NCBI GenBank assembly: GCA_002633005.1
Contig: NMRA01000362.1
Span: forward strand, 62,001 to 126,000
DNA: 64,000 nucleotides
Source: Phoronis australis
Lineage: Eukaryota; Animalia; Phoronida
Direction of reading: 5' to 3'
Of the stretch, positions 26,968 through 60,445 are shown one piece after another. Position numbers and translations under genes: made by a program. The number at the start of each line of letters is the position of its first letter. Within the stretch, counting starts at the first letter, position 1. Below the pieces are notes generated by a model. It saw nothing but the letters and a program-made list of their open reading frames with translations. It did no database searches and was not told where the DNA came from.

Positions 26968-29900
26968 TCATTGACGTGAATTTGAACGTAACAGAGTTTT
27001 GGGTCCAGGTGCGAGTGACGGTAGACCGGAGTTTTTCGGAAAGTTTATTTTGAAAAATGTCGCTATCGCTGGTAATTCGTACTCCGCATCTTCTTCAAAG
27101 ACCCCGGCTACTCCGTTACCGAATGCACCGATGTAGTAGGAAATGTTTTTCTCGGAAGACTGGTCGCCGTGTAAAAATTTAAATCTATAAAAGGAGAAAA
27201 TAGCACAGTTGAGACATTAATTTAACACAGCCTAGTGTGTAGCCCTTACGTATGCCTCTACATTAAGTGCAGTTGAACCCATGTTAAGCTGAGGCACATT
27301 CCGTAACTTAACATAGTTGCTTGTGAAAGCTACAGAGTCACGTGATTTGCACGACGATGACGAAGGATGACTTCCGTGACCTCGCATATTTCGCAAGGCA
27401 TACATGTATGGTAGGCTTACTAGCTAGACGTAGCCCACAAAAGAAACGATTCAACAATATTACACATCTACGCATACTAAGATCAGATTGCACATAGATC
27501 ATCCGTTGTGTTGATGACATATATCCCATAGGACTTAGAGGGAGCCAATTAGCGGTTGCTTGCAACACTCGCAAATAGAGGCTCAACAAATTTTCCTGAA
27601 TCTTTCGCATGTTTGTGTCTTTCTTTACTCGCAGATGTAATATTTATCTTGAGCAGCTCCTCTTTCGGTAATGTCCCTTTCTAATAATATAACAAAAACT
27701 GAACTCTTATTCCAGAGAAAATCAATAGACATTTGGTCCTTGAAATAGAGGCGTTCCATGAAAATATCCTTACTTATTTTCAATAATATTCATAATTCAA
27801 ATTACCAAAGTTAAAAATTGACTTGGTTATAAAACTTAAGCAGCACAATAAAGGGCACTCATTGTTATCACGAATCCACTAATACATAGGCGCAGTGTGA
27901 GATTTGGGAAGCTTAGCTGAATCCGTATTTGGGACTCTTCCACGTAACCCGGTCCGGTAGACCCCTTACGGACACAGCCAAAAACACCGTGAGCGTCATT
28001 TTTAGAGCTTAAGAGGAATTTTCCTTTGAACATTGTGGTTTTGCCCTACACTTACGACTTCCTAGATCTACCATTTACTGCTGTTTCATGAAGGCCGGTG
28101 TGTCATACGTGAGACTTGTGGATATAGACACGCCAGGTCGTTTTGAAGCCTGCGGTTTGTGTTGCTTAGCACTGAGTTGAGGTCACTTATTTTGAACCGA
28201 CTACGTTAACTATTCACGCATTTGCGTCAAAAGCAATGCAAAGCCCCTTTAAACCAACCTGTATCTATAGGATGAGCGGTTCTCAAGTTCCCCGTATTGT
28301 TCTAAGAGTAGTCGGGCTTCCAGAGGTATGGGGTTTGTACTGTTGGGCTCATAGCTCTGTAAATGATATAGAAATCGATATTACAATAGCAAAGACAAGG
28401 ACCGATTTAGGTCACAGAATTACATCCTCCACCACTGACGCGGCAACAAACAAACAAACAAAGGAAAAGACGTCGCCAGCATGCTGATTTTAGGCCGTTT
28501 CCACCGAAAATCGCACATAGATTCCCCAATGCGTCGGTGCCTTCGAAAATAGCTAAAACTCAATCCGACAACTCTGAAAATCCACGTACCCACTCTTCCG
28601 AGCGCCACGGTCAGCGAAGGTATAGAATTCAAACCAAGTTTAAAAACCAAATGCAAAAGATTAAAAAAAGGAGACCCAAAGTTTAACGATTTCAACAATA
28701 GAGGTCGGACGCATAACGGGGGTGTGACCAGTGTTATAGTAGTGTTTTATAACGAAATGGAGCTTAGTCGAATCGGATATATCAGCTACCTATTACAAAC
28801 AAAAGAAACGCGCACCAATAAAAAAACTTTTAAATTTCCATGCAAAAACCAGTTTGTTAGTTTCGATCGGCGGACATGCCACTGAGCGAGGTTGGTGATG
28901 CACATTCACCTGTGGCTATAACGTAGGTGCCAAGCTAAAACTGTCAGTTAGGAGATATTGATCACTTTCGCAGAGATCAGCAACGTATGCTACATGAGGA
29001 CCTATGGCCTTGTACAGATTAGTAAAACTTGATTGACAACATAAACTTACTTTTAAGGCAATGGTTCCGTCCTCAAGTTTGACTAGACAATATGACCTAT
29101 CTCTATGGACAGCCTTGAAGAAAAATTCGCACCCACTTTCCTTGGCTGGTGTCCACAATGGCTCGTGAAACACAAATAAAGCTGGAGAGAAAAAGGAAAA
29201 CGAAAATAAATACGTAGGTTTCATATAATATCAAAAAGTATGACTTACAAGAAGCTACTTGCGAGGGTGGAGGAACAGTCCTTTATAGTATTCCTGCCTA
29301 ATAGGCCTAGTTGTTGTAGACTTTATAGATCAGTACACGCAACAGTATCTCATGCGCACACCTAGCTTTCAATATGGGGGGCTCGAATTATTGAGGTGGA
29401 GACCTTTTGGTAACAAACAGGATGGCGGGCTAGAAAAAAAGCGTGGCACCACTGTGAATGGTGCGTTTGCACTTGTTTAGTGGACTTTTGTCTCATTTTC
29501 TTTTTGTTTCTCCGGAGAGGCGGACCTTTTAGCCCACTTCGCTCCCCTGGGTGCGCGCATGTAGCCTACTTACCATTACAGAACAGGCGTGCGTTCAGTA
29601 GACGCTAGGACCTACGGTAGGACCTTGCTAAAACCTAGTCAAAGTCACGTGTTCTTATTTAAAATACACGGCAATATCTCACGTAATCTCGCGAAGTCTT
29701 GCTTTTTAGCGAGGTCCTAGCGTTACTGAACGGGAGGCAGGACTCAGTGCTCAACACTGAGCCACCGCCGCATTCAGTCCTATATACTGCACATGTCAAC
29801 TTTGTGCTAACGTTTCATTGTTAAAGCTCACCGACTTTTAAATAAAGATTATTACTACTACTACTACAGGTAACGAGAAACGCATTGTTTTTAGAAGAAA

Positions 29901-31254
29901 GACTTGAGTATCGTGTCGCTATATGCTAATGTTACACTTACTGTTTTCATCGAAAAGGTAACCCATGGCATCTACAGACAGCAGTCCTGGGCAAAGTTCC
30001 TCGGCCGCGATACGAAAGCAACCTCCTTTGACATTTGACTGGTCGCATCTCAGTTGAATAGTATCCTGATAGTAGGGCTGTAGACAGATTCATAAAATGT
30101 CGTCATATATTTGTCTACTCAACGAAATACTCGAGACAGTCACGAGGTACGAGCCTACTCGGGTCAACCGCTATATCGAATACTCACCGAACAGGTCAGC
30201 GCCTACGGCGAATATTTACCAAGCCGTAAACCGTGGGAGTGTGAGAAAATTAAGAGTAGGCTACTAATCACGTGCGAGATATTACCTGAACGTTCGTTCG
30301 CAAAACATGGGAATTAGTTCACGTGATTCTAGGTGAAAAAGCACGATATTTTGAAATACCAAAATGAAATTACATGTGAATACATGTCGATGTCAAATAA
30401 TTTGTTGCGGAAAGGTTTCGAGCCGCATCAACGACATGTTTTAAAGGCAATTACAAATATTTCAAGTTTACGTATAGGCTATATAATTTCCGCAGAAATA
30501 GGCCTAGAGACTCAGCTCTGCCACCATGGGCCTAAATACGCGCATTTACAGTACCCGAGTCCTCCAAGCGGAATTTGCACATGACAACATCAAATTCAAT
30601 CACGGGACATACATACGTACATGTACATATACTAACTGTACTTACAGTGGGGATTTTGTTTTCACTATGGCTCAGCCTGTTCTCTCTTAACACACGTACA
30701 TGTGTGTTCTTGACGAGCCTTCTGAGTTGCGACAGGCGCATCGCAACGAGCGGGTCTTCGTCATTGGATACGTAAACCATATTCTCCTGAGTGAAAAAAA
30801 ATGAAGATTGATTAAGTTACTCCAACCTACGTTTTGCACTGCAGCATGTTCCGAGCATTGTAGTCATAGACATCTTAACTTGTGATGTCTATCATTGTAG
30901 TATTCTCTGCGAACGAAACTACATATAGTATGGCAATGACCGGCACGTGCTCTTATTTCAGAATCTACTCAGCAATGAATTAACTCGGCACCTTCGCGTG
31001 CAAACAATGGCGAGATATTTACCGATATAATCGTACCCTGGTAATGGAGTATCTTCAAAGTTAATCGGTAATATGTATCAATATCATCGCCTGCAAGCAA
31101 CCCCCCCCCCCTCCCCACCCACCTCTTCCCTTACCTCCGGTTGCCCGTCCACCACATCTGATCCAGTATCCTTCACACACACAGCGTCGGTCACTAAGGC
31201 CACATTCCAACGCCGCTTACGTTTTGTCGCTGAACGCGAGTTTTGGCCGAGCAT
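26968..31254 (-). CDS. Leaderless IL-1-like (beta-trefoil cytokine-like) protein A, 7 coding exons, about 265 aa
   Basis: Exons 31254-31221, 31090-31023, 30786-30646, 30077-29942, 29181-29051, 28149-28079, 27184-26968; all GT-AG, total 798 nt, no internal stop. C-terminal part: PYYQDTIQLRCDQSNVKGGCFRIAAEELCPGLLSVDAMGYLFDENTLFVFHEPLWTPAKESGCEFFFKAVHRDRSYCLVKLEDGTIALKASKRPGVSISTSLTYDTPAFMKQQFKFLHGDQSSEKNISYYIGAFGNGVAGVFEEDAEYELPAIATFFKINF. The gene itself is well supported. The IL-1/FGF assignment is by-eye motif and intron-position inference; exons 1, 2 and the exon 6 donor are less certain. Confidence 0.7.
29351..29561. mobile_element. MITE, copy 2 of the 16576 family (intron of IL-1-like gene A)
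   Basis: Termini catgcgcacacc / gggtgcgcgcatg; shared internal ggactttt...gcccacttcgct. Confidence 0.65.
29590..29732. repeat. Short inverted-repeat element
   Basis: cgttcagtagacgctaggacct ... aggtcctagcgttactgaacg. Confidence 0.6.
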
Positions 31255-31313
31255 GATAATCTATTATGTCAGCTTAATCCACAATTCTGAACTCATTCAT
31301 TCTAAGCGCCACG

Positions 31314-31321
31314 TTTATATA
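31314..31321 (-). promoter_or_regulatory. Candidate TATA box of IL-1-like gene A
   Basis: TATATAAA on the minus strand about 60 nt upstream of ATG 31254. The implied first exon ends at a strong AAAC|gtaagc donor (31221). Confidence 0.55.
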
Positions 31322-31393
31322 GCACTTTAAGTATTTAAATCAATCAAAAAACCTGTTGAATCTCGGGGGCTAAACAGAAAGTGCCCAAGCAAA

Positions 31394-31404
31394 GGGGATT
31401 TCCC
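31394..31404. promoter_or_regulatory. Consensus NF-kB (kB) site
   Basis: GGGGATTTCCC fits GGGRNWYYCC on both strands and lies about 75 nt upstream of the TATA box. Confidence 0.55.
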
Positions 31405-35485: not shown

Positions 35486-38400
35486 CTATCTTCTCTGGGA
35501 AGATTTCATCACAGTTTCGTATTCGCTTGGCTTGTCTCCCATAGTCGTTCCTTGTACATGTAGTTTAGCATAGTCTCCTTGTGCGCCTTTTGTGCTGTCT
35601 GCAAGTCCTTCATAAACAGGCGTTTGTGCCACATTGGCGTATGCCACGTCCACAGCTTCCTGACAAACAGGGGGTCCCACGTCGGAGTAGGCGCCGTCTA
35701 GAACCTGGTTAGAGTCAGACTCTACTTGCTTGTGTAGACCCAACGTTCCTATCCTTTTCAACATCATTCTACTTGGTCCAAGAGCGACACCTGTCAACAT
35801 GTGTGGATACAATGAAGTCATTCTGATAATAATGCTCGCACTTTCAATTCCTTAGACTAAGGACCAACCATTTCTTAGGGACATTTGAGCCTGAGACGAC
35901 AAAAAATTTAGAGAACACGTAACTGATGTATCACAAACCCAAAAGATACCTGTACTGTTCCTGATGTCGATTAGGATGTTTTAAATAAAACCATTTTGAT
36001 TGGAACATTAATGTTTCAAAGTGTGGCGCAAATGAATGTGATTTTAGTGTGAGTTTGGACTCAGTGCGAAGGAGTTTCTAAGATCATTTGCATATGCCTT
36101 TTGAATGCTCAGTGCGAAGGAGTTTCTAAGATCATTTGCATACGCCTTTTGAATGCTTTTTCGATGTAGATGTTTTCATACATGTATCCGACCGGTGAGT
36201 GAGGACATGTTTGTGTATCTACTATTAGATACATGTAGGTTTGCCAATAACGCAACCTCTTAAGCAGTATATAACATTTTGCTGCGGTATGCCACCGTGT
36301 GCGGTGCAGGTGATTGCCTTGGTTTTGTTTACGGTGCAGCTCAGTGCGATATTTTCTTTTAAGTGGAACAAGTACGCTAGTTCCTCATCTCTGTGATTGC
36401 TTGGTCAAATTGGTTAGAAACACAGCACATAGCGACGATGTGATTATGAAATAGGTTGAAAATTGCCGAATGTTTTTAAGAACAAGATTGTGGCGAAAAT
36501 GATCCGCTGCAAATCATCTAACTGTTTCGCGATGCTGGAGAACAACACCGCATGATGCAGGCTATGTGAGCACACAAGGTGCGTAATTAGTACAAAGGTC
36601 ATCTATTAGCAATTTTTTGTTTTCACATTTACGAGCTAGCAGTGAATACAACTGCACTGTGTTTAGTGTATATTATATTAAAATATTATAGTCGTTTAGT
36701 TCCTGCTCTACATTAGCAAATACATCTTTGTCATACAAAATGGTGAGGAGTACGGTTAATGACGCTTTAAGAATAAACAGCGTAAGGTGACCTTATTACA
36801 TGTACCTTAACAACAATTTTAGATGTCTCTTAGAATACAGGCCAAACAATTTAGTTGTAAGCTTGTAAAAACATAATGCATTATTATGCACAGTCAGAAA
36901 TTGGGTACAACCTAAGAAACATTTACCAAGCCTCAAAGTCAAATCCTCGATAGTAAGGTCTGCGAGAGATTGCGTTGTAATTTGCTCTCTTTCGAATGCC
37001 GGAGCGTGGGACTGCAGCCCAAACGACTCGAGTAAGTCTGCGACAGCATTGTCTACAAAAGCAAAACACGCAGTACAGCCACCAGGGATGATCATTAATT
37101 GTAATGTTTCCACTACAGGTATCATGCACCATTAGGAAGCTGAATATAACACGGTACGACCCCACCTGCCTTCTGTAATGGTGATTTTTCAGTTTTAATT
37201 ACAGGGAAGTGGGTGATGAAGAACCAACGCAAAAGAATAAAGACGCCATTCTGGAGTTCAGCGTCGTGCCAAATCAGTTTGAAACAACGCAAGTGCTGTC
37301 TTCCTCATGATAGTTTTTCATTTTTCCTATTTTATGATTATGCATCGAACACTTTGGTAAATATCCAGACAGAGGCAAAGAAAACCAAACTTGTCTAAGG
37401 CGTACTCCACATTAGTCGGGTTCACGGTCGAAATATCTTCACAATAGAAACACAAACTAAAACTCGTGATGATCTGTGGAAGAACTTGGAATATGTCCAC
37501 TCTGACAAATATAAATTAGCTACTACGAGTCCAAAATCTTTCGCCCTCTGTGCTACTCTCACTACGAGCACGAATATCTATAGTTGATAAAGATCTTTTC
37601 AGAGAGTTAGTCGATAGACAGCAGAGCGCCACGCAGACGCTAAAATAAAGCTACACATCACCTGACCACAAAATGAGGCCTTTTTGCTAATAAAATCGGT
37701 CTCGTTTATCGTAATAAGACGATCGGAGAATCAAAGATGCGTTTATAGTTCATTGGGATAGGCTAGCGCTAAAATCAGGAATTCTAAAATGAAGCTTCTA
37801 CCAGTTTCTACGATACGTAAAGACGAAATCTGTTTTCTTTGATTTAGCATCTTTTTGGCAGATAATTTCAAGGTGACATTCAATTTTAAAGCTGCATTTC
37901 GCTGCTGTTTAGCTGAGTCCTTTACAAATCCCATTTGATCTTGAATGAGAGTCGAATTGAAAAGCAACTCAAGTCACAGACAATCTACGTGTAAATACAC
38001 GCCATTTTCGATTTCGCAATTTTAAGGTTGGTTAAGTCTGATATGTTTTCTTGAGTTGATGATAGCAGGAATAGAATTCCATAATGCTAGGGAGTGTAAA
38101 GTGTCCAGTAAAATACATACCATGTAATTGGATTGTCGTTTTTAGCCGCCAAAACATAGCGGTATAAAGCTTTAATTAATAGAAAAAACATCCCAAAATT
38201 CATGAAAGTCCCGACGGCAAGAAACTCCGAAGATAAAAACATAGGCGGATTTAGGGGGGCAGGCCCCCCCCCTTGCCTGCCGCAAAAAAATAAAACAGCA
38301 AAAGGATAGGGAAATGTTGTGTTTATTAATTAACCCCGGTAATTAAAATTATACGGCTGAAACAAGATTTAAATGTGTGCAGTTTTAGTGTTGGGGGGCG

Positions 38401-41400
38401 GGGGCTAACTATAGGCTCTCCCGCGATATCCCAGGCGACCGGCTGTGGCGCTGCGCACTACGACTCTGTTTCCGTCGTCTGCTCCACTGTGCAATGAAGA
38501 AAATTACTCCATTTTTTAAAGAAAATGGAACCTGAGTGACGATGAAAAAACAGAAACTGCTGGTAAGATGTGAATTTTAATTGAAGCCTTAGTGAATCAC
38601 TCAGGAACTCATAATTCTCTAGTTGTCAGACCTTATTTTAAGACGATTTCCAAAGCAATCCCGTCATTATTGCCAACACGAAAAACCCCCCTCCCGACCT
38701 CCCCCTCCCCGCCCATTCGGTGCTATGCGCACCTACAATCGTGGTTTGCGCAAGTGCTTACACCCGGACAAAATGTTTGGCCCCCCTTGTGATATCCTAG
38801 ATTGGCCACTGACAAAGGAAACTAATTCTTAAAATTTAAAATTGTCACTAGACAGTAGGCCTATCCGTTGGAGCGTTAATAGGAATACACTTACGAAATT
38901 TCACAAAGCTCCTGCGAAGGGTTTATGAATTTCAAGTGTGGACGCAACTGCCATTGCGGAGGGAGGATCTGAGATTAATGTCAGTCATGTTCTTTTAGTA
39001 GCACATCTATCAATTTTCGTGATCGTTTGAGCGTTTTGCAGATAAAGACGCTGGGGTCAAAAATGCACACAGAAATCCTACAAGTGTCCACCAGTGTCAA
39101 GAATAAGTCTTTCCAACCGAAATCGGAAAGGCACCGTCGCCTCCTTCATAGATTTCTATTTGCCAAATTTCATCAAAATACGCCAATGAACTAAGCGACC
39201 ACATGTCCATTCAACACAACAACACTACTGTTCATAACCATCATTTGTCAAAAATCAACTAATTCTGAAACTCTGTAAAGTATGAAGTTTGTGCTTACCT
39301 AAATTGCTGTTCCAAGTATTCGGAAACCTCGTGCGGACCTTAAAATATAAATTCTCTAACTTTAATTCGGTCCAACTAATGAACCAACGGCAACCTGTAT
39401 TGTACACTTGTCCCAATGACAATACAACACGCTTACACTGGACCAGGAAGACATTACTGTCTCCCTGAATGGACGTATATTAGTAGTGCGGACTGGATGT
39501 TGTACTGCCTTTGAGCCCAACTGTGCAAGCGAATATAAGGCATTTGAGAAGTTAATCAGATATGGTGGGAATTGTGGCCAAATGACGAAAAAATGAGACG
39601 ATATTTAAGGGTGTATGTCTCAAGGTCACATGTCGAGCTTCTCGTTTCGCCTGTTCCAAGCAGGTCACCTATTACATGTATTTAATACTTTAGAAAGGGA
39701 GCCGTTTTTACTGCCAATTTCATGAAATTAATGTTTTTGGTTATTCTAAATACATGTAGAAACTTAATAAAGCCGTCGAGTGAACGGGCAACACAGCATT
39801 TGGACAAGACAATAAGACGTAAGAGCAAGGCAGGGCATCTAGTACTTAATACTTTCGAAAGGGGACATTTTTACTGACAATTTCATGAAATTGATGTTTT
39901 TGGTTATTTTGAATAAAAACTTAACGTGAACGGGCAACGGAGCATTCTTGACACGGACGAGACAACAAGACTCAAGAGAAAGACAAATAACGGTCGAATT
40001 TTTACCTTTACCTAGTGGACGTACGCAGATTAGCATCTCACTACACGCGTGGGTGCGTGAATATCTAAAACAACGGACAACATTTCCAACAGAACATACG
40101 TGTACTTCAAATTGCATCGTACCGACGACATTTGCTACACATCGTAAGCTTACCATTTTCAATTTTAGTCGAAATAGCCTTTGAAACGTAGAAGTTTCGT
40201 ACGAGAAAAGAACTTGCTCACACTGAAGCATGAAAATCAAGAAGGGAACAATTTTCAATAAAATGCGGTTGAATCGCACAAACGCTGACAATGTATGCCC
40301 GCGCGGCATTTCATCAGCATCCTTTTAAGCGAAATTTGGCAGCACTCCGCTAAGAAATATTGGAATATTATTATCAGCGCAGACATATGGTGAGCCATGA
40401 ACAAACGGCCGCAATGACGTTTGGTTTTGCATCTTTTCAATGTCTCATCTGGTGGTAAGCCTAAAGGCAGTATACAGCGCCACCTTTAGCTCAAAAAGCA
40501 AAATACATTTAAAATGGCTAATGCCTGAGGATATACACTGTGCATATCTCCCGTCCATAAGCCTGAGATTATCACAGGATGAAAATACTAGAACTACGAC
40601 CCATGGCCCACTCACCGTGTCGTTCACATAGGTCACAGTGTCAGCCGCGTTAGCAACCCCTGGTGTCTGAACTTGTAGTTTGTCATTTGGTCGGCTGCTT
40701 CATCCAAAAATTAAAAAGAGACATAATCTGAACATAGTTTGACTTCACTGGAAGGTACGCATGACAATCATTCAACGAGACAACGAGGATGGGTGCGAAT
40801 AACAAATTCAGATAACTGACATTGTTTTCATGTCGTCAAAATTTACGACCTGTTAGTTTTTGCTCACTGAGTTCAGAGGTGATTTCTGAGTTGCAAAGAA
40901 CAGACATTTCGTTATTAGTGGAGACCATTCTCGGCGGACAATGGCATGTCGTGACAAGCCAGCTTGTAAAGTCTCCCAAGCAAAGACGATTTGTCAGTTC
41001 CTTCAAAGCCCAGAACGAATATCCAGTTTAAGCAAGGTAGGTGGTTTAAAAGGTCGCTTTTCGTGACGGAAGATGATTGACAGCCACTAAACCGAAAAGT
41101 ATCAACCCAAGTTACCACAGAAACAACTGTCCATCTGTAGCCACAGTTGTCCCAAGTCGGGACGCAAGGTCACACTACAGGCGTCTTCGGCTTCTGATCG
41201 TCCCCACTACACTATACATAGTAGTGTCAGAAAGAGATAACCACCCTGGTTAACTCTTCCTGGTATTATGTATTAATTGTATTAAGGACGATCAGGAGCT
41301 GAGGACGCTTTTGGGTCACACAAGGCTGGAACATCAAGCAATTTGAACAAGTTCTTTACACACCAGGTGTTGAAAGCAATAAAACAAGTACGTTGACGAT

Positions 41401-44400: not shown

Positions 44401-47400
44401 CATTGGGCAGGCAAAGCGGCTAACGGGTGTGGTGTCCAAATGTGCATCGAGTTAACTTAACAGTTGATAAACGATGCGTTTGTGATTTGCTGGTCAATAG
44501 CTAATTTGAAAGAAAAAGTTTGTGTCGACTCTGGCATGCGGGCGACAAGGTGAAAATACTTGCTTTGCTGCAGTGTGCGGTTCCTCATGAAGAACCAAGA
44601 ACTGCATGGAACAGTCGTGACCTGAAATTCTAATTCTTCTGCCAATTCAATGTCACATTCAAATCATTTCTGGTGAAGCGTTTTGAGTGTCATATTCATA
44701 CAAAAAAAGGATGCAATACATGGTAATGGAATAAAGTGCCACACAGATTTCAGGTAACCTAGGAGATGCCAGGTATTAACTTTACTCGAAGGTACCCAGC
44801 CTTTGTGTTAAATGAACTTTAAACCATTTACAACCCAATTACCTGCAGTCTGATCCAAAACAGTCATGGTTGAAACTAAAACGAAACATGGCAAATCGTA
44901 TTTGAGCAATTCGGTTGATGTCATGGCCAAATTACATATACTGCACAGCTTGGAGCGAAAAGTGGAAATTTACGATACGGCTTGTTAAACGTCGAGATGC
45001 AATTACCAGGTCACATGGGTATGTGGTTCCTGATGGAAGTTGAGAAACTACATGTAGTGCCACGTTTAATTATTGTCAAAATTAATTGTTAGAGGTATCC
45101 TGGAAGTCATAACCAAAAACCACTAAGGACGTGCGGGGAGTCACTCACACGCTATGCTGTTTTCTCAGAAATGCTATTTGACCTTAAGCAGCACGCTTGT
45201 AAATGAAAAATTAGTTAATGTTACGTTTGTACTTGAACATGTTCACATGCAACCTGTTTTATCAAAACTTCACACAACCAGGATAAGGTAGTCCTACGTC
45301 AGCCGTTAACGCGTTAAGGGAACGCGATGCTGTGCTTTCCCGACCTGAAAAGTATTAATATAGCGTCCAAAACTGAGACGGCACACAAATATAAATTGAC
45401 CTATCCCAAGCTATCCCATGTAGCTCAACGTCGACAAACAAAAATACGTTTTACCCGGCAACGTGTTCTTTGTCGGGTAAAATGGCGGCTTGGAAACGGA
45501 GGCGTGAAAGGAATGCTGCCTTCTGATTGGTCAGTTAAGCCGTCAACCAAAATCCTCGCGTTTGGTCAGATTCCCAATGACACTGGCATGTTCCCATACA
45601 TTACATTCCAGCCACTGTCAAGTCACACTGAAGCACCGTAAGTTATCACAAAAGCACCAGGTAAAGTTCCATCGATTAAAACCAGAACACTGATGACATC
45701 AATCCATCTACTTGTTCAACAATTTCAAAGACGGTGGCATATACTTGAAAATGACGTTAAACGATAATGTCCATACAGAAATAATCTGGAATACAATTTT
45801 CCGGAAAGCTACATACATGTATACTGGAAACACCTGAACGACATAGGCCTAATGAAATAATATTAAGTTGAGCTTACTCTCTTCAGAGGTCGTTGTGTCC
45901 ACGGATTGTGTCCGACTCGCTGGTTTTGCTATAAACAATATACACGAGAAATACATGCATTTATCAGTACAGCGTGTCTCTGAAACAGTGACAGTACGAT
46001 TTCAATAATTGCACGTCAAAATCCCGAAAATAGCAGGTAACGACAAAGATTCATCTAGCAAACTATAAACAATTAACAACAAGTACATTTAGCAGGGTGA
46101 CATTTCTCATTTCTGTGGACTTTAAGTTTACACATCAAAAGTTGGTTTTCCCACTTCTCCGAAATAAAATGCCGCGGCCTGAAAGATGATCACTTTCACG
46201 AATATTAGTATAATCGTTTCTCATGCGCGCACATTCAAAACCAATTGGGATAGGCAATTGAACATTTTGACATTACAAATTGTGAGATCCCTGCATGAAA
46301 ACAACTTGTGCAATTCCTCAATAAGTAACGGTTGGGGGTGTATCTCAGATGCTTTATTCTTTTCTACAATGAGTTTCAATTATCTATTGTTCTAAATAAA
46401 AATGTGTAGCCTAAGATCAAAGTATGTGTTAAGTGTTGAGTTCTTTTGATGAAACGGACCCCTGGGTTCTACCACCACAAATTTCGAGTTCTGCGATCAC
46501 CTACCCGCATCAACTCTAGACTTCGAGTCGAACGAAGACACTTACATGTACATGTAAGCAAGGGTAAGCAAAGTGTAGGAACGTCACGACTTGCCAAGTA
46601 AAGAGTAAAAACCAAGTTCCGCATCATTTTAATCGTTTAAAATGTGTTTCCTTTCTGGAAAAGTGAGCAACTAAAAATCACCATCGACTCTACTGTCAAA
46701 ACATAGAAACTATAAACAAGTATGCATTTTGTCCTACGTGTATTTATAAGATCAGAGCCATCACTGAACTCACAAAGAGTCGACTCCGATTTCTTACGTG
46801 TACCTGATCAAATCCAGAATCCTGATACCCTGATAATGAGATGGTACAGTGTCTACAATGAGTATTTAGTAGTAACTACAGTTAAGAATTGACCAAGTTC
46901 TTGATAGTTATTCATCATTTATGTCCTCCAACTAAACGTGAACACCAACCTGTAGCCCTGATGGTGACATGTATGGACGCTGTGTGCGTCACACCACGTA
47001 CAGTGTTTGACGCATTACACACGTAGACAATCTCAGATTCAGTGATTGTGAAAGAAAGGACCGGCCCGCTGATAACACTACTTCCGTTGACATGCTGGTA
47101 CCACTTGTATTCGTGAGGTGCGGGAATGGGAGGAGATGACGTGACACCACACGTCAAACTGACTTGATCATTGATGTAGTAATCAAAAGGTGAAGTACAC
47201 TGAGTGGTGGACGTCTTACATACTTTAATGTTAGCATTGGATACAGGCACAGGAGCTGGTTGATGAACGAGAACAGAGGAAACCGTGACACAGGCGCATT
47301 AAAGAAAAACGTATGATTATACATATCACGTTTGCACTTCCATTTGAATTTCCTGACATGAAACTCGTTGTAGGCTTAATGGGCTAGAACTACTTTGCCT

Positions 47401-50400
47401 TTAACGTTTTTGCTCTAAGCTATAGCCGTCGCATCTCGAATCTTTAATAGCAAACGATTCAATATCGTGGTTTATGCATAGAAACTGTGACCATTACATT
47501 TGAATTGAACCACGTTTCACTTTTTTAAAAATGTAGAGTCGTCTTCGCAGTGACGTCTCTACGACCGTCGGTCATAGCTTCGACCGAACCTTTCGACCTT
47601 TGTAAAAACGACGCCCTGCTTCTTAACCACGTTCAATTTAATTGAGATTTCCCCGTTCATTTAAGTTAATCTGATTTGTGGAAGGACTCCACAAAAAATC
47701 AGGATAGCAGGAAGTGTTGCACACAAAGTTCCCGTGAGAGTAATCATCTGCGCCATGAACTTTTTGCGTGAACACTTCTATCATAATTTGACAGGCAACT
47801 CATGTATTTCACTAAGTTCCGCAAATTTAGTTAGATACCCTTTACCAGTCTAAATATGTGAAACAAAAATTCCGACTCCAATTTTGCACATCGCCAGTGC
47901 TCAAACGTCACAAATTTGGAAGCCCCAGTTAGGCCTGTGGACATTGCCCTGCAGAAGTGACCTCCTATTGGTGATTGAAGCTACTGAGAACAGGCAAATA
48001 GGACGGAGTGCAGTTCGTGTAATGCTCCGTGAGCAAACTCTACGGGAGAGGTAAGATTTTTCATTTTCTATCATGAAGAGGTTAGGAATGAATTACTATA
48101 AGGTCAGGTTTTGAAAAGGTGCAATATGGCTGACACAGATTGCCAAACCTGCTCGAAAATGGCTTTAGCGAAAACCTGCAAAATACCTATAGCCGTTTTT
48201 GCCCCACAAAATCAAACCAAACAAATTTGAAAGTAATTTTTGAAAGTTATGCCATTAAACATTCAATCACGGCCCTTTAAAATCGTATCAGTCATTTGTT
48301 ATCAGCTAGATACACGTGTTAGTAAAATACATACAATAATGTCTACTTCAGCAAAATGTCATAAAAAGAGAAATAATGAATAAAAATTCTAAAAAAGGAA
48401 TGTTTCTACATCTCATCGAATTAAACTCATGTGCTAAGACTAAAAATTAAGTGATTTTTGGTTTTCAAACGGAGTCACGCTTAAATAGCAACTTACCAGT
48501 TGCATCTATGGCCTCAGTTTCAGCTGACAAAGTAGCCTGCCTGTTGTACACTTGACATCTGAACTGTACACCATCATCAGCTGTATCCAAGTTGACCGTC
48601 AGTGCGCTGGAGCCGCTAGTGGTTCCATCATTGTTCCTGGTGATAGTCGTGTTAACATTCTCTGTTATGTTTGTGTATGCACCGCTACCAATCCGACGTG
48701 ACCACACCATAGATGCCTGTGGTTTGCCCAAGTTGGCTGTACATGTGAGGACAATTGGTAATGCTCCACCAAGAATAGACGCCGGGGCTCCAGATATAGA
48801 TGGTGTGCTCGGGAGGACTGGGGAAACGTGCAATAGTCAGTCAAACGTTGAGCTTACATGTATACGTTCAATTGATGCTTAAGGGCCGCATTCACTCAGT
48901 AGTTTTATGGCAGGTGATAAATATTCGAAGTGTAGAAATAGGTGTACGTTATCAAGTGAGCGCAGACGATTCAGTCTGCAAAAATATGAAATCGTTTTCA
49001 AAACGTATTCACCAAGACACCCGAAGAATACTCAAGCACAGATAGGCCTATAGGTGTATGCTCTAAAATGTTTTCTCCTCTACATGTTTTGTTATGTTCT
49101 GCCTTCCCGATTGCCTTTACGTCAATCGGTACGAAAGTTTTGCCTTCATTTCTGTAAATTATTGAGGGGACAGATACACACAAGGTCCTTCCACAACTGC
49201 CATGCGTTTCATTAAAGGAAACTACCCCTTCTCCTCGCAAAGAAGTTCTCTCTACTGAGCGTACTAAGTGTTCCACAACATAACTTTGATATGATATATC
49301 CACGTATGACCTAAGCACGTGCAAATTTTAGAAATCTGTCCAATCTGAAATTTGCTTCTTCGCACTTCACGAGGACATTTCCACCATTCACCTTGTCCAA
49401 GCGCTAATCTTATTCACGTTTGTTAGTTCCATACAAGAGTCCCCTGTTTACATGTATGTAGAAACACACTGCTCAGCGCAAAGCACACTATGTTTCTGGT
49501 ATTGCTTTTCATAAACAGCTTAGTCGCGCAAATGATGTTTTTACTATTTCGGTAACGCAAAACCAAGCTAATGATGACAAAAGCAAAGTAACTTAGCTTC
49601 CTTGTTTCACATAATTAAACATCTTTAGTGAACGTAACGCCTTGCCATCCAACACAAGTTTAGTAACCACAAGTGGGACAACTACAAGTATCTGGACGTT
49701 TTTGGTCTTCAGTTTAGTGTACTCTCTCTCTCAGCACTTGTGATAACTTGACATACATGTAGAGTGATATTGTACCGAGTACTGCCAGCGTAGCAGTCGA
49801 TGGAACCACGCAATAGAGAGCCTTTTGAAAATGATCTATTGCATGGCAAACACTAACAAGTACAACACAAAGCCTTACATGTACTTACCATCCAACACAA
49901 GTTGAGTTACAACAGGTGGGACAGCTAGGTTGTAGTTTTTAGTAAACTGTACAGTGTACACTCCCTCATCACTTGTTGTAATTCCACTGAGAGTGATGGT
50001 GAACTGAGTCCTGCCAAAATAGTAGTTAGTAGAAGCGCGGGTTTCATAAGGTCCTGAAAATGATCCATTGGGGAAAAACAGGCCTTGAAGGAAGTTAGGT
50101 GCAGTAAACACATTCTGTGTGCCTTTATTCAGCTCAAAACTGTTGAAGGAATCACCACCACTCACTGTGTAGCTGATTTCAAATACAGCTGAGCCTCCTT
50201 TGACAGCGATGATCTCACTAGGAACATTCACATCAAGAGCTGCATCAACAACACCTGCAATAAAATGAACAACTTTCTGGGGGGTGTTCATCAGTGTGGT
50301 ATAATACATGCTCATACAAAACGAATTCTCCAAGAAAATGATATTTCACAAAAGTCTAAAAGTTTTGTAATTCAGCTGAAAGTGGATGCAATACATGTAT

Positions 50401-51532
50401 GTTGAAATGGCGATCTCATTACAATATAGAATTTGTCAAAGTGTTATTTTACTTACTCTTAATTATCTTTTAAAGCATTCCTCTGACAACGATGATCTCA
50501 TTAGGAGCATTAACATTAAAAGCTCCAATAATGAAAAGAAAACGAAGTGCGTCTTAAAAATGTATTGATGCTTGGATTGGGTCTTTGAGCATCATTCAGC
50601 GTAAAATTATCAGAAAATTGTCACGCAATTTACATCTATGTGGAGAGCAGGTGAGCAAACTAAAAGTTTGGTGCCAGGTGTCGATGGATCGGGTTAATTC
50701 TTTTACGTTACAAATGATATCCACGAAAAACAAAAATTCCCTGAAAAGCACAGATTTTTTAACCTTTGCTAAAAGGTGTACAGATGTTAACATTCTATAC
50801 AAGTATCTGTTCAGTGGGAAATATTAATTTACTGAGTAATTTGGGCTTCATCGTATGGTGAAAAATACACTTAAATATTATTATTTTTATTTTTTCATTA
50901 TTTATTTTATTTTATTAATGTAATATTATTTACAATGAGGGTATCCCCATCAGTTCAAACTGCTTTCCATGGGGGCCTTCGCCTGCATAGTTACATTCAT
51001 GTCTTCATTACAGTGCTTTCCAACCTTTTTATGGTGACCACTGTGTGAACAAGGCCTATAGCGCATACTGCGCTGGCGGTGGTATATGCAGCACCCAGTC
51101 GAATATATGGCCTTGTTATCAATCGTTCCTTCATGAATCTCACTTCCGTCTTAAAGTAGAATCACTGGGCTCCAGTTCGTGACAAGTAATTTTTTCGCCT
51201 ACGGGTTTTGTTTGGACTACCCAGTAGGCACTGATGCTCTAACCATCTAATAAGTGTTAAAAACGTGCGTGCCTAGGTCTCATCTTGCACATGAGTATTT
51301 CGCCTTTTCAGACACCCGGTACATACGTGTAGATCTGTAACAGATCTCTTTACAATGTAGGCAAAAGCAAGTATCTAATATTGCACTTTGGTTTCGGGAA
51401 TTGTTCGGAAATTGTTACTAAAGAATTTAAGCCTTTCTTAAACACGAAATTCAACACAAATTTCACCCCACCTTTCACGGCCATGATAATAGCAATAATG
51501 ATCAAGGCAGCTGTCAGCGATGAATCAGCCAT
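35486..51532 (-). CDS. Ig-superfamily type I receptor: signal peptide, IgV, IgC2, IgC2/I, stalk, TM, SAM domain, Tyr-motif tail; 11 coding exons, about 610 aa
   Basis: Exons 51532-51472 (MADSSLTAALIIIAIIMAVK), 50254-49889 (V-type, DEGVY), 48817-48497 (LTC...W...DDGVQFRC), 47255-46950 (LTC...YKW...YVCNASN), 45928-45878, 44875-44843, 41581-41437 (TM VAGVVISVFVLEIVLIVLLVMLIRR), 40694-40616, 39338-39299, 37052-36927, 35790-35486. The last two encode the SAM (VADLLESFGLQSHAPAFEREQITTQSLADLTIEDLTLRLGVALGPSRMMLKRI), then YSDV, YANV, YEGL, YAKL, YETV. All GT-AG; Ig exons are phase 1-1; total 1833 nt. The small exons are less certain. Confidence 0.85.
36060..36157 (+). repeat. 48-bp tandem duplication
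   Basis: ctcagtgcgaaggagtttctaagatcatttgcata(t/c)gccttttgaatg, twice. Confidence 0.85.
38240..38810. mobile_element. Non-autonomous interspersed element (intron of Ig receptor); inverted copy at 24560-24918
   Basis: Starts cataggcggatttagggggg; core 38410-38665 matches the reverse complement of 24575-24830. Confidence 0.75.
39660..39985 (+). repeat. Diverged tandem duplication of about 170 bp
   Basis: ttaatacttt(a/c)gaaaggg...ttttactg(c/a)caatttcatgaaatt(a/g)atgtttttggttatt...gtgaacgggcaac occurs twice. Confidence 0.8.
41630..43530 (+). mobile_element. 5'-truncated, inactivated non-LTR retrotransposon with restriction-like endonuclease (R2 superfamily, HERO-like)
   Basis: RT C-terminus (HVQARW, MKFKPRKSR, IKCLGKWY), CCHC knuckle CQFC...HILSGC, WRHDQVL, and endonuclease LRPDI...IELTVPWE...KY...PVEVGCRGF. 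A 19-bp duplication at 41795-41832 shifts the frame and an in-frame TAG sits at 43041-43043. The ORF ends at 43289. It is antisense within a receptor intron. Confidence 0.9.
44212..44285 (+). pseudogene. tRNA-like sequence (tRNA pseudogene or SINE head)
   Basis: A box TGGCTCAGTGG, B box GGTTCGTGTCC, stem TCTGC/GCAGA. The anticodon loop ACGGTTA lacks U33/R37 and the acceptor stem is mismatched. Confidence 0.6.
49641..49845 (-). pseudogene. Degenerate duplicate of the 3' half of the IgV exon (pseudo-exon)
   Basis: Colinear with 49884-50070: ccatccaacacaagtt, gtgggaca, agtgtac, gagtgat, gagt(a/c)ctgcca, tgaaaatgatc(t/c)attg. It has indels and the donor changed from gtaag to gcaag. Confidence 0.75.
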
Positions 51533-54330: not shown

Positions 54331-54410
54331 GGCGACTCGGTGGTGTAGTGGTGAGGGTATTGACCTGAAACTTAAAAGGTCTGAATTTTAATCCATCTCA
54401 GTCCCAAGAA
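54331..54410 (+). mobile_element. Degenerate tRNA-derived SINE head
   Basis: ggcgactcggtggtgtagtggtgagggta is A-box-like, followed by a decayed B box. Confidence 0.4.
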
Positions 54411-56199: not shown

Positions 56200-56291
56200 A
56201 CGAGCTCTCGACCCACATCCCAACAACCCCATCCACCCACGACCTCATCCACCCACGACCTACGACCCACAACCCCCTCGACCCATGACCT
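56200..56291 (+). repeat. Low-complexity (acccacgacct)-like repeat
   Basis: Several cgacccac / cccacgacct units. Confidence 0.6.
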
Positions 56292-57547: not shown

Positions 57548-58744
57548 CAGTCATGATTAGTGAACAAAAGTGGAATAATGCATTGCTCAATTCTTGGTAG
57601 TGACAGGCTGTTGACAGCGTTTGCTCTCTCTGAGCACACCAAACTTGGAAACACCATATCGAGATAGACTCCGACGATTTTAATCATGTTTGAATTTTCA
57701 GACAGCACAATTTCTGTGAAATTCCCGTTTCTGGTTTTTCATTAGAGCTTTCGTTATTTGTTATGTTTAATTTAATATGAAGGTTCGTTTCATTCTTAGA
57801 AAAGTACTTAACACTGAACCCGTTTCGCGACTGAAAAACGCCGGCGCCCGTAATCAGTGGAAATTCCAGGTAGAGACCGTTCTCTCAAAGGTTTTAAATA
57901 CAGAAAAGCTAGTGAATGTTGTTGAAGAAAACCGTCGTATAGTATACAGACGTTTGTCAAATTTAGCAAACAAGAACTGTACATGGCAAAACGTGTACGG
58001 TATCCATAACGTTGTTAGTTGATATAAATGTTCATGAGCACAAAAACGATGTAAGGTAAGCTTTTTTTAAATACTTCGTTTCTGCAACTATATTTTTTTA
58101 AAGAAGCCATAAAATTTCTATTTTGGAAAACCCCTCACGTGGAGCATATCAAAACCAATTCCTAATAGCGTTTATGAGAACAGTGCGTAAACCACAGTGC
58201 AGTATCTGAAAGTTTCGTGATGAATCTGATCAGCCATATTTGAGATATGATGTTCAGAACTTACCCAAATTTAGACAAATGGACAAATTTCTAGGGTCCT
58301 AAAACTAATATAATAACTTTTACTTACTACATGACCATTCATTCATAAAACACGACAAATTTCAAAAGATGCAAACTGCATGCCCTTTCTGAGCAGAGGA
58401 CGACTGCTTAGTTTCAAAATCTTCCGACCACTTGATGTATGCATACATGTACCTGTCACGTTGAGACCTATTCAAACCAGGAGAAGCGTGGGAAGGGTTG
58501 TAGCGCCCTCATTTGGGAAGTTGTAGGTCCAGATGGTGAAAACCTTCCCATTAAAGCGAACGGGAAAGATATGCTACCGCATTCCTCAAATGACAGACAG
58601 CTTATAGCTGTTCTATAGCCTTTTTAACTTTGTGCGGTGACCATTACCCGCGGTGAATGGGAAACTGAGGAGGGTTTCACCGACGCAAGAAGCTCGTGAA
58701 AACGCAAGATCGCGCGTGACTTTACCGACTGTATGAATACAGCT

Positions 58745-59015
58745 AAAGTCATCGACAGTAGAAAGATGCGTTCCGAAAAGGCGCAACCACAATTTCTAGG
58801 ATTCACATTTCCTGAGCAGAAATTTTAAGCACCGATTTGTATGTAGCAACAGACTTCATTTACACTTCAGTCCATCAGTCATGCCAGTTTGTTTGCGAAA
58901 AGGGCTACCTGTTGAGAATTCGACTAGCCAATCAGAAACTCCGGTGAAAAAAATTCCCGAGGAAAATTAAGTGATACCTGCGTGCTGGCTACTGACCATC
59001 TAGCGGCACACAGGG
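58745..59015. repeat. Dispersed repeat; inverted copy of 17680-17925
   Basis: gacagtagaaagatgc...caaccacaatttctaggattcacatttc...ttttaagcaccg. Confidence 0.7.
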
Positions 59016-59339
59016 AACCAGCGCGTAGCTTTCTTCTGAGAGATTGTTGCGTGTATGACATTTGCCTAGATGTCGACGGCCGGTGCATTCTCTTTCCTTT
59101 TAGCCCCATCACAGAAGAAAACATTTGAACGCTTACGAACACTTTTTTACTTTGGGGGTGTCTCACAGCATGTAGTAGCCCTCTTTTGGCGTGGCGTCTG
59201 GTGGCAACTGTGCCACACACCACTGATTATATAATAAGTACCCCCCCCCCGGTCACCAACTATTTTCTGTATGACCCTATTCATTTATAAAAAATATAAT
59301 TGCAGGCGGTCTGATACACGTTGTACCAGACGTGCGCAG

Positions 59340-59527
59340 GCCTCGCATGTGGGCCCATTGCACTGATCACCTGGAAATATTTTTATGCTTTATTAATATA
59401 TGGTTAAAACCGAGCTGAGGAGCTAGAAACCTGGCACAAGGATTTAGCAGTGTGAACTGGTGGGACTTGAACCCACGACCTCGAGTAAAGAAAGCGGGCA
59501 CTTATCAACCAGGCCACACTGCCTCCT
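59340..59527 (-). mobile_element. tRNA-derived SINE (head 59527-59455); related decayed head at 56995-57087
   Basis: The minus strand reads gaggcagtgtggcctggttgataagtg...gtgggttcaagtccca (A and B boxes). The body motif cctcgcat(g/a)tg(g)gcccat is shared with 2922-2938. Confidence 0.55.
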
Positions 59528-60282
59528 CTATTCATTTACGCAGATGACGACCTTATACAGTGTACATACATGTACCCATATCCAACTGAAAGAGTCACAT
59601 ATACATGTAAATGGTAGGTAGAGGTTCTGGCTGTATCAAAATCTGAAAACAATGGTGATGACGGTTATAAGTGACATTTGCATGGCCTTGCTGCAATTAT
59701 AAACACTTAGAAATACCAAGTTATATAAAGCAAATTTTATTTAACAGTTCAACAACAACAAGGCAAATATCCTGAGGCAAACACCGCCCATTGGGAAATA
59801 CTGGCCCCGTGAAATATTCAAATGGGAAATTGGCGGGAATGTACAGCAGGTTAATATGAAACATAAATACAGGTTCTTCCCAAGCAGGTCATGGTCCAAA
59901 ATGCAATAACAGTTGAAGCGCTTAATACATGTAAACTAATGAACAATGATAAATTAACATTAATACTGAAAGTGTTCTGTAAGACGTGTTCCTTGGAAGC
60001 TTGGCTTTGGCAGACCATGCAGGTCTTCGCGATGTGCATTCGATGACCTTTACCACTAGTCGGTTTTCAGGAAATCTGTCATTCGGTCCGAAACTCGCTT
60101 CTCATTCTACATGTATAATTGTAATTGCTTGATTTTATTCCGATGTGGATGGCTTTTTCGGCGGGTCCATCTATCCACACAAAACAATTACAGTTGTACA
60201 TGTACATGTACTACCTTCCATTCTCGATCTAGGTTCTCGCGTTGCAGAACGGCGCTCAGGAAATCAGCCCTTGTCGACATTT

Positions 60283-60445
60283 TTATGCGCAGTCAATCAT
60301 AGTGAAGCATGTTTCCGGATTGGTTCCTGCTGGCGAACCATCATTCCTCACAAACTGTTCACATAGTTTGGCCTGATCGTCAGGACCTGACGCTCCGAGG
60401 TAGACATCGTGCAATTCAACTTTCGGACCATAAACAGCGCGAAAC
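60283..60445 (-). CDS. Terminal exon of a second IL-1-like (beta-trefoil) gene B; upstream exons uncertain or outside the window
   Basis: Acceptor tcttttccag|G (phase 2), then FRAVYGPKVELHDVYLGASGPDDQAKLCEQFVRNDGSPAGTNPETCFTMIDCA-TAA. Same phase and same F...Y(L/I)GA...TxFx(M/I) pattern as the last exon of gene A. AATAAA on the minus strand near 59737-59742. Confidence 0.65.

What the first reader, a model, noticed from the sequence alone, without database searches (positions are those of the whole stretch)
26968..60445. Co-oriented cluster of IL-1-like gene, 3-Ig/SAM/Tyr-motif receptor and second IL-1-like gene: candidate invertebrate cytokine-receptor locus
Seen: three consecutive minus-strand genes, with a three-Ig receptor between two related beta-trefoil-like genes. 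Known: vertebrate IL-1 receptors and FGF receptors both bind beta-trefoil ligands through three-Ig ectodomains, but signal through TIR or kinase domains. Inference: this may be a linked ligand-receptor module signalling through SAM plus phosphotyrosine motifs, an arrangement I do not recognise. Adjacency alone does not prove binding, and divergent IL-1-like genes may already be reported in some invertebrates, so novelty needs checking.
Basis: partly seen in the sequence, partly recalled or inferred. Interest (0 to 1): 0.85.

Follow-up and report, generated by a model that had tools for sequence, protein, structure and literature searches.

The report
SAM-tailed Ig receptor beside IL-1-like gene
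An expressed invertebrate gene likely encodes a three-immunoglobulin surface receptor whose inner tail carries a SAM domain and five tyrosine docking motifs, and it lies next to an expressed gene that is likely an ancestral-type interleukin-1, but nothing yet shows that the two bind.

Summary
Two of the three genes hold up. The middle gene is an 11-exon, 611-aa model: signal peptide, V-set, C2-set and third Ig domain, stalk, transmembrane helix, SAM domain and a tail whose 5 of 5 tyrosines are YxxV/L. RNA reads confirm 6 of its 10 introns (stalk to tail); the Ig-side introns were not covered. The downstream gene has six exons (5 of 5 introns read-supported) and encodes a leaderless 280-aa protein that resembles published IL-1anc proteins by eye; its trefoil fold could not be tested. 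The upstream 'second IL-1-like gene' is one convincing terminal exon plus weak candidates, and its likeness to the first is not significant. IL-1anc genes and their linkage to putative TIR-type IL-1 receptors were published in 2025-26. I found no paper on an Ig-TM-SAM-tyrosine-motif receptor. Its V-C2 ectodomain fits ITIM/ITAM-type immunoreceptors better than IL-1R, and no relative, synteny or binding model could be obtained. Best reading: a SAM-bearing tyrosine-motif Ig receptor beside a PDZ-less IL-1anc-like gene. Cognate pairing is about 13% likely.

The parts
26868..27184 (-). Downstream IL-1anc-like gene, exon 6 (stop at 26968-26970, then 3' UTR); entered through a phase-2 intron
   Evidence: joint 27184/28259, 6/4/45 reads in X2/X3/X4, and contig piece 26868-27184; model
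28259..28356 (-). Downstream gene, exon 5 (phase 0 to 2)
   Evidence: joints on both sides
29051..29181 (-). Downstream gene, exon 4 (phase 1 to 0)
   Evidence: joints on both sides
29942..30077 (-). Downstream gene, exon 3, likely start of the trefoil (phase 0 to 1); a 6-nt insertion allele keeps the frame
   Evidence: joints 29181/29942 and 30077/30647 (tables 5 and 5c); table 4
30646..30786 (-). Downstream gene, exon 2 (pro-region, with a DEDP motif at residues 49-52)
31135..31291 (-). Downstream gene, exon 1 (ATG at 31254 with an in-frame stop just upstream; basic KRKRR stretch; no signal peptide)
   Evidence: joint 30785/31134 and contig end at 31291; hydropathy
31315..31404 (-). Likely promoter of the downstream gene: TATA box at 31321, about 30 nt before the first transcribed base, and a kappaB-like palindrome at 31394-31404
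   Evidence: the kappaB pattern is not enriched in the window (4 matches, 3 of them at this site, against 2.52 expected)
35486..35790 (-). Receptor exon 11: last helix of the SAM domain and the tail with five YxxV/L motifs (Y545, Y561, Y570, Y584, Y601); stop codon; 3' UTR runs to about 34750
   Evidence: joint 35788/36925; motif statistics; two 6-nt deletion alleles keep the frame (table 4); polyA signal at 34748
36927..37052 (-). Receptor exon 10: first two thirds of the SAM domain
   Evidence: Pfam SAM_1 E 1.4e-6, SAM_2 E 1e-6; joints
39299..39338 (-). Receptor exon 9 (cytoplasmic linker)
   Evidence: joints
40616..40697 (-). Receptor exon 8 (juxtamembrane; Y451 in a YxN motif; two acceptors 3 nt apart)
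   Evidence: joints 40694 and 40697/41437
41437..41581 (-). Receptor exon 7: transmembrane helix
   Evidence: joints; Kyte-Doolittle peak 3.29
44843..44875 (-). Receptor exon 6 (33-nt stalk exon)
   Evidence: joints
45878..45928 (-). Receptor exon 5 (Ser/Thr-rich stalk)
   Evidence: donor read-supported; acceptor from the model
46950..47255 (-). Receptor exon 4: third Ig domain (C2/I type, Cys285-Cys329 pair plus an extra Cys pair)
   Evidence: Pfam Ig_3 E 9.7e-4; phase 1-1 exon; no RNA check
48497..48817 (-). Receptor exon 3: CD80-like C2-set domain (Cys168-Cys230)
   Evidence: Pfam C2-set_2 E 3e-7; no RNA check
49889..50254 (-). Receptor exon 2: V-set domain with no cysteine
   Evidence: Pfam V-set E 5.9e-7; cysteine list; relative P0003, 37% identical; no RNA check
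51472..51532 (-). Receptor exon 1, coding part: predicted signal peptide
   Evidence: model; hydropathy peak 2.42; no RNA check
60283..60445 (-). Terminal exon of the candidate second IL-1-like gene (strong acceptor, 53 codons to a stop, polyA signal at 60139)
   Evidence: resemblance to IL-1anc C-termini by eye only; not RNA-checked
61000..61587 (-). Weak candidate upstream exons of the second gene (61000-61092, about 61234-61344, about 61440-61587); acceptors have only 2-6 pyrimidines of 13
   Evidence: not significant, not RNA-checked

Best explanation
The middle gene is a spliced, expressed gene that likely encodes a type I Ig-superfamily receptor signalling through phosphotyrosine docking sites helped by a SAM domain, and its downstream neighbour is a spliced, expressed gene that is likely a PDZ-less, inducible IL-1anc-type cytokine; they likely sit together as neighbouring immune genes rather than as a ligand and its own receptor. 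Shown: the exon structure from stalk to tail, the SAM match, the non-random YxxV/L tail, and the six-exon leaderless neighbour. Inferred: the cysteine-free V domain binds a cell-surface or microbial ligand; clustering lets a Src-family kinase phosphorylate the tail; SH2 proteins dock (SHP2/SHIP-type on the two ITIM-like sites, Syk-type on the YxxL-x10-YxxL pair, Grb2 on YxN); and the SAM domain builds receptor oligomers or holds a SAM-bearing effector such as SHIP2. The net effect is more likely damping than activating. The cytokine would be transcribed from its TATA/kappaB promoter on challenge, released without a leader, possibly after cleavage near its DEDP motif, and would signal through an ordinary Ig-TIR receptor encoded elsewhere.
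For: Open 611-aa and 280-aa models with all-GT-AG introns. 6 of 10 and 5 of 5 introns read-supported, with frame-keeping indel alleles in both coding regions. Domain matches. 5 of 5 tail tyrosines have V/L at +3: 0 of 20,000 tail shuffles reach this, p=0.0014 over the whole cytoplasmic part; two ITIM-like sites p=0.013-0.03. Ectodomain order V then C2 with a cysteine-free V domain, which is the nectin/SIRP/CEACAM/CD2 pattern (pattern recalled). Precedents: oyster CgNCAM1 (3 Ig, FN3, 2 ITIMs) recruits SHIP2 and damps inflammation (PMC11841013, passages); SAM-SAM docking of EphA2 and SHIP2 (PMC10935306, PMC5993539, abstract starts); SAM-driven oligomers of SLP-76 (PMC3795252, abstract start). 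Neighbour shares IL-1anc traits listed in PMC13736523: no leader, N-terminal basic stretch, trefoil region over 4 exons, DEPD-like motif, plus by-eye motif matches to Lingula IL-1.2 and cnidarian IL-1anc. Joint reads per million rise about 10-13 fold for the cytokine-like gene but only 1.6-2 fold for the receptor in X4 against X2/X3.
Against: The four 5' introns joining the Ig exons to the stalk are modelled, not read-supported. The trefoil fold was not tested. The FES motif is not literally present, and Pfam finds no PDZ or IL1 domain. No full-length relative of either protein was found, so motif conservation is untested. The tail mixes ITIM-like and ITAM-like motifs, so the sign of the signal is uncertain. 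The published ancestral IL-1/IL-1R linkage raises the prior that an Ig receptor next to an IL-1 gene is its partner, and both genes peak in the same run. Tissues and treatments of the three runs are unknown, so an immune role for the receptor is not shown.
Confidence: 0.55

Rival explanations
1. Cognate module: the IL-1anc-like protein binds the three-Ig ectodomain, and the receptor signals or acts as an inhibitory or decoy partner through SAM and phosphotyrosine motifs in place of TIR.
For: Direct adjacency, about 4.2 kb from receptor stop to cytokine ATG. IL-1anc genes are linked to putative IL-1R genes in cnidarians and most ambulacrarians (PMC13736523). Swapping the cytoplasmic module under a trefoil-binding Ig ectodomain has precedent in FGFR against IL-1R (PMC11087794, passage). 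Both genes are expressed in 3 of 3 raw RNA runs and both are highest in X4.
Against: The ectodomain is V-set then CD80-like C2-set, which is not the IL-1R or FGFR domain series as I recall it. The paper reports no discernible microsynteny of IL-1anc within lophotrochozoans (supplementary Fig. 1 legend). The expression ratio of the two genes shifts about 6-fold between runs. The 'sandwich' between two cytokine genes is unconfirmed.
Confidence: 0.13
2. The receptor is a nectin/CADM/nephrin-like adhesion or neural recognition molecule whose V domain binds itself or another Ig protein in trans and whose tyrosines recruit cytoskeletal adaptors; its position next to the cytokine gene is chance and has nothing to do with immunity.
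For: V-C2-C2 layout with a Ser/Thr-rich stalk. Steadier expression across runs than the cytokine-like gene. No kappaB-like site within about 1 kb upstream of the receptor's first coding exon. The other neighbours (an amidase gene and a mucin-stalk membrane exon) are not known immune genes.
Against: ITIM-like and ITAM-like spacing in the tail. The V exon found only 10 matches among 1.84 billion representatives, and only one (P0003) aligned over most of the domain; such fast divergence is more usual for immune receptors than for conserved adhesion molecules (inference).
Confidence: 0.22
3. The downstream gene is another kind of beta-rich or trefoil protein (lectin-, FGF- or fascin-like, or a nuclear factor), not an IL-1 relative, so there is no cytokine locus.
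For: No Pfam, PDB, atlas or database match for its exons. No literal FES motif and no detectable PDZ. Basic NLS-like stretch.
Against: By-eye matches to Lingula IL-1.2 (a G-L-x-V-D ... D-E-N pattern in exon 3) and to cnidarian IL-1anc (F ... Y-I-G in exon 6) in supplementary Table S2. Central intron phases 1 and 0 as recalled for IL-1 genes. PDZ-less and NLS-bearing IL-1anc members are described, and the paper says sequence searches miss this family.
Confidence: 0.1

Closest known systems
IL-1anc family, PDZ-less members (Fontenla-Iglesias et al. 2026, PMC13736523; e.g. PclaIL-1.2/1.3, PvanIL-1.2, SpurIL-1.3; nearest by eye Lingula LanaIL-1.2, XP_013384251.1)
   Same: Leaderless; about 170-aa C-terminal region over 4 exons; N-terminal basic stretch; DEPD-like motif in the pro-region; by-eye strand motifs.
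   Different: No PDZ detected (87-aa pro-region); F-K-F in place of F/L-E-S; neighbours are not GCC2, ESD, EIF2A or TRAF3; the linked Ig receptor has SAM, not TIR; fold not tested here.
IL-1 receptor family and invertebrate Ig-TIR receptors linked to IL-1anc (PMC13736523)
   Same: Single-pass receptor with three Ig domains next to an IL-1-like gene.
   Different: No TIR domain; SAM and tyrosine tail instead; first domain is a cysteine-free V-set; invertebrate IL-1Rs are described with two Ig domains.
ITIM-bearing Ig-superfamily receptors: oyster CgNCAM1 (PMC11841013); vertebrate SIRP-alpha, CEACAM1, CD33-type Siglecs (recalled)
   Same: Three Ig domains, TM, short tail with ITIM-type tyrosines; V then C-type domain order as in SIRP, CEACAM and nectins (recalled).
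   Different: A SAM domain lies between membrane and tyrosine tail; no FN3; five YxxV/L motifs including an ITAM-like pair.
Eph receptors (SAM-bearing single-pass receptors; PMC5364462, PMC5993539, abstract starts) and SLP-76 (SAM plus tyrosine motifs; PMC3795252, abstract start)
   Same: A SAM domain used together with phosphotyrosine docking at the membrane.
   Different: No kinase domain and no Eph ectodomain; SLP-76 is a cytosolic adaptor. Here the SAM and tyrosine module is fused to an Ig ectodomain.

Membership tests
IL-1anc (downstream gene) | C-terminal 12-strand beta-trefoil with IL-1 strand order | not testable with these tools
   The domain is split over 4 exons and no full-length relative was found to fold; by-eye motif likeness only
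IL-1anc (downstream gene) | No signal peptide | tested here: met
   No 19-residue hydropathy window above 1.6; maximum 0.77 in the first 40 aa
IL-1anc (downstream gene) | N-terminal PDZ domain (absent in a subset of members) | tested here: not met
   No Pfam hit on exons 1 and 2; pro-region only 87 aa; PDZ-less members exist
IL-1anc (downstream gene) | F/L-E-S motif in strand 9 | tested here: not met
   F-K-F at the matching place by eye; published cnidarian members carry variants such as FRS and FQS
IL-1anc (downstream gene) | Trefoil on 3-5 exons with two central introns of conserved phase | tested here: inconclusive
   4 exons, phases 1, 0, 2; the paper gives the phase values only in a figure I could not see; phases 1 and 0 for IL-1 are recalled
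IL-1anc (downstream gene) | Induced on immune challenge | tested here: inconclusive
   10-13 fold difference between runs of unknown tissue or treatment; one kappaB-like site, not enriched over chance
IL-1anc (upstream candidate) | Intact multi-exon gene homologous to IL-1-like proteins | tested here: inconclusive
   Best two-exon joint in the window (rank 1 of 401) but p=0.19; other tests not significant; weak acceptors; no RNA
IL-1 receptor family | Cytoplasmic TIR domain | tested here: not met
   The read-supported cytoplasmic exons give SAM plus a 5-Tyr tail and a stop
IL-1 receptor family | Two or three extracellular Ig domains | tested here: met
   Three Ig exons; their joining to the TM exon is modelled only
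IL-1 receptor family | Binds an IL-1-type trefoil | not testable with these tools
   Neither the whole ectodomain nor the whole trefoil could be handed to a folding tool
FGF receptors | Cytoplasmic tyrosine kinase domain | tested here: not met
   The 196-aa cytoplasmic part holds only linker, SAM and tail
ITIM-bearing Ig-superfamily receptors | Type I membrane protein with Ig ectodomain and [ILVS]xYxx[LV] motifs (consensus recalled) | tested here: met
   Two such motifs (Y561, Y601), shuffle p=0.013 in the tail and 0.032 in the whole cytoplasmic part
ITIM-bearing Ig-superfamily receptors | Phosphorylation-dependent recruitment of SHP1/2 or SHIP and inhibition | not testable with these tools
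   Needs experiment

The most novel reading that the evidence does not exclude
An invertebrate IL-1 binds a dedicated, genomically linked three-Ig receptor that has replaced TIR with a SAM domain and a phosphotyrosine array: a third way to read a beta-trefoil signal, beside TIR (IL-1R) and kinase (FGFR), and the first directly testable IL-1anc ligand-receptor pair in this lineage.
Probability: 0.13. Interest if true: 0.85.

Novelty: new variant of a known kind. Interest (0 to 1): 0.45.

Why it matters
[quoted passage not shown] Even without pairing, a kinase-less Ig receptor with a SAM domain and five tyrosine motifs would put a receptor and an SLP-76-like adaptor module in one chain, a layout that six paper searches did not turn up. 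It would add to the few known tyrosine-motif immunoreceptors of invertebrates. The cytokine-like gene alone is a new member of a published family.

Tried and rejected
No whole genome is held, so synteny and paralog counts could not be tested. No RNA evidence was obtained for 46,500-64,000. No RNA holder was listed by the index itself; the three raw RNA runs came by species label. Protein searches with single exons found nothing: last exon of the cytokine-like gene (57 candidates, 0 hits), receptor tail exon (28, 0), V-domain alignment (3023, 0); all covered longer proteins only and are weak. HMMER over 1.84 billion representatives with the V exon gave 10 hits: 9 are long multi-repeat proteins matched over part of the domain and one is the single V exon P0003; none of the 9 scanned (P0004 not scanned) showed a SAM family. 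Metagenome scans: 0 of 37 and 0 of 184 candidate stretches confirmed. Atlas: no usable hit for either query. PDB sequence searches: nothing for either terminal exon at E<=10; only weak antibody V domains for the V exon (best E 0.053); tankyrase-1 SAM at E 0.023. AlphaFold on ORF 61659-61973 (pLDDT 34.8) and on the V domain (51.9), with its fold search, were uninformative. The V-domain homodimer job gave no answer and is not used either way. Paralogy tests for the upstream candidate: last exon alone p=0.15, rank 6 of 547; single exons rank 11th to 44th for the first hit in that region; four-exon chain 15.2 against a null of 17.3+-0.6, 89 shuffles; two-exon joint rank 1 of 401, p=0.19, 3855 shuffles; two spliced aligners not significant. 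The p=0.0013 is for the best of 338 models and is not corrected, so I set it aside. A TIR receptor, GCC2, ESD, EIF2A or TRAF3 in the window: none among 28 ORFs scanned; only amidase matched. Read-through between receptor and cytokine-like gene: not seen. A scored comparison with the published IL-1anc sequences was left out; they were compared by eye.

Full report
Approach. No genome is held for this window, so the work rests on the 64-kb sequence, one RNA lay over 26500-46499 with three raw stranded RNA runs and one contig run under the same species label, searches by single exons, and the literature. That the animal is a lophotrochozoan is only a lead, from an earlier scan note on the same genome and by-eye likeness to a Lingula protein; I did not test it.

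The receptor is real. Eleven exons with GT-AG introns give an open 611-aa frame. Pfam on single exons finds V-set (E 5.9e-7), CD80-like C2-set (3e-7), a third Ig domain (9.7e-4, under its cut-off) and SAM (about 1e-6, model positions 6-43 of 64; the rest would lie in the next exon). The first six introns are phase 1, as usual for Ig exons. The V domain has no cysteine. Hydropathy shows a signal-like peak and one transmembrane peak. Reads support 6 of 10 introns, from the stalk to the tail, on the minus strand; the four 5' introns were not covered. Two 6-nt deletion alleles in the tail exon keep the frame (table 4). All 5 tail tyrosines have V or L at +3. None of 20,000 shuffles of the tail reaches this, and p=0.0014 over the whole cytoplasmic part. 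Two sites fit the ITIM pattern (p=0.013 and 0.032), Y570 and Y584 form a YxxL pair 10 residues apart, and two sites are YxN (motif names recalled). There is no TIR or kinase domain.

The downstream gene is real and probably IL-1anc. It has six exons, 5 of 5 introns read-supported, a 280-aa frame, phases 0, 0, 1, 0, 2 and no leader. A TATA box lies about 30 nt before the first transcribed base and a kappaB-like palindrome about 110 nt before it; the kappaB pattern is not enriched in the window (4 matches against 2.52 expected). It has a basic KRKRR stretch and a DEDP motif; the IL-1anc paper describes N-terminal NLSs and cleavage in a DEPD motif. By eye, exon 3 shares a G-L-x-V-D ... D-E-N pattern with Lingula IL-1.2, and exon 6 shares F ... 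Y-I-G with cnidarian members (supplementary Table S2). Against this: no Pfam, PDB, atlas or database hit, no PDZ, no literal FES, and the fold could not be tested. I put IL-1anc membership near 80-85%.

The upstream gene is not confirmed. Position 60445 is a strong acceptor (10 of 13 pyrimidines; confirmed acceptors have 7-13) before 53 codons, a stop and a polyA signal. The exon opens with F-R-A and carries Y-L-G 11 residues on, close to the Nematostella spacing by eye. A phase-2 joint from 61000 into it is the best match to the downstream gene's last joint among 401 candidates, but shuffled queries do as well 19% of the time, and four other tests were not significant. Candidate upstream exons have weak acceptors (2-6 of 13), and the pieces that align best do not join in frame. 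It may be a divergent paralog, a decaying copy or unrelated; I give about 55-60% that it is IL-1-like and less that it is intact.

Pairing. For: adjacency; the published linkage of IL-1anc to putative IL-1R genes in cnidarians and most ambulacrarians; precedent for swapped tails under trefoil-binding Ig ectodomains; both genes present in 3 of 3 runs and highest in X4. Against: the V then C2-set series matches immunoreceptors and nectins better than IL-1R or FGFR (recalled); no microsynteny is reported among lophotrochozoan IL-1anc loci; summed joint reads per million are 1.5, 1.2 and 15.2 for the cytokine-like gene (4 joints) but 6.8, 5.5 and 11.0 for the receptor (6 joints). Three runs of unknown tissue from one study are thin evidence either way. 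No relative with context was found.

Mechanism. Most likely the V domain engages a surface or microbial ligand, clustering allows tyrosine phosphorylation, SH2 proteins dock, and the SAM domain oligomerises the receptor or holds a SAM-bearing effector. Oyster CgNCAM1 recruits SHIP2 through ITIMs and lowers inflammatory gene expression, EphA2 binds SHIP2 by SAM-SAM contact, and the SLP-76 SAM drives oligomers. Two-point docking of SHIP2 by SH2 and SAM is therefore a specific, testable guess. All these steps are inferred.

Literature seen. PMC13736523: parts 1-3 of 13 of the text, passages, supplement 1 part 1 of 2 (71), supplement 4 part 2 of 7 and single rows (70, 74), and a whole-word search of all 7 supplements with 0 hits for SAM and TIR (40). 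Its figures were not visible, so I cannot exclude that a linked 'putative IL-1R' in Fig. 3 or supplementary Fig. 1 lacks TIR. PMC11841013, PMC11087794 and PMC11999971: passages (93, 84, 75; the last has no mention of SAM). PMC3795252, PMC5993539, PMC10935306, PMC5364462: search listing and abstract start only. Six searches for an Ig-TM-SAM receptor returned 0, 1, 7, 3, 0 and 6 papers; none describes one, judged from titles and abstract starts, plus passages for PMC11999971. The library covers open-licence papers only.

Verdict. One new likely IL-1anc member (known family), one apparently undescribed receptor layout (new variant of tyrosine-motif Ig receptors), one doubtful second cytokine gene, and an untested pairing at about 13%. 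Interest 0.45; 0.85 if the pairing holds.

Noticed in passing
window 41626-43540: A stretch of about 1.9 kb in receptor intron 6 that looks like a retrotransposon fragment by eye (no Pfam hit on the one ORF scanned). Run X4 has reads joining 41626 to 43540 and almost no depth inside, while X2 and X3 cover it on both strands, so it is likely a polymorphic insertion.
   Followed up: partly
window 17000-17558, minus strand: A large exon with a Ser/Thr-rich stalk, a transmembrane helix and a short acidic tail ending in a stop: the last exon of another co-oriented type I membrane gene downstream of the IL-1-like gene. Upstream exons were not found; there is a faint LRR_2 match at 21256-21582 (E 0.13).
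   Followed up: partly
window about 5400-15100, plus strand: Multi-exon amidase-family gene (Pfam Amidase E 3.8e-25 and 1.6e-8 on two exons).
   Followed up: partly
window 61656-62159, minus strand: A 168-codon open frame of unknown nature just upstream of the candidate second gene. No Pfam, atlas or metagenome match; low-confidence beta-rich model. A short segment resembles exon 2 of the downstream gene and PDZ loops of IL-1anc by eye only.
   Followed up: partly
window 49647-49730 and 50479-50523, minus strand: Short degenerate copies of the end and the start of the V-domain exon in the flanking introns (tblastn E 0.62 and 3.3), possibly relics of an exon duplication.
   Followed up: no
window 29584-29741 and 38250-38800: High-copy repeats transcribed on both strands with many loose ends; the first lies in intron 3 of the IL-1-like gene.
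   Followed up: no
window 57136-57548: Long imperfect inverted repeat (32-nt arms at 94% and 64-nt arms at 80%), MITE-like.
   Followed up: no
P0003 (unnamed 1.1-kb ENA contig): A single V-set exon 37% identical to the receptor's first domain, also without cysteines, so the domain family exists in at least one other locus or animal.
   Followed up: partly
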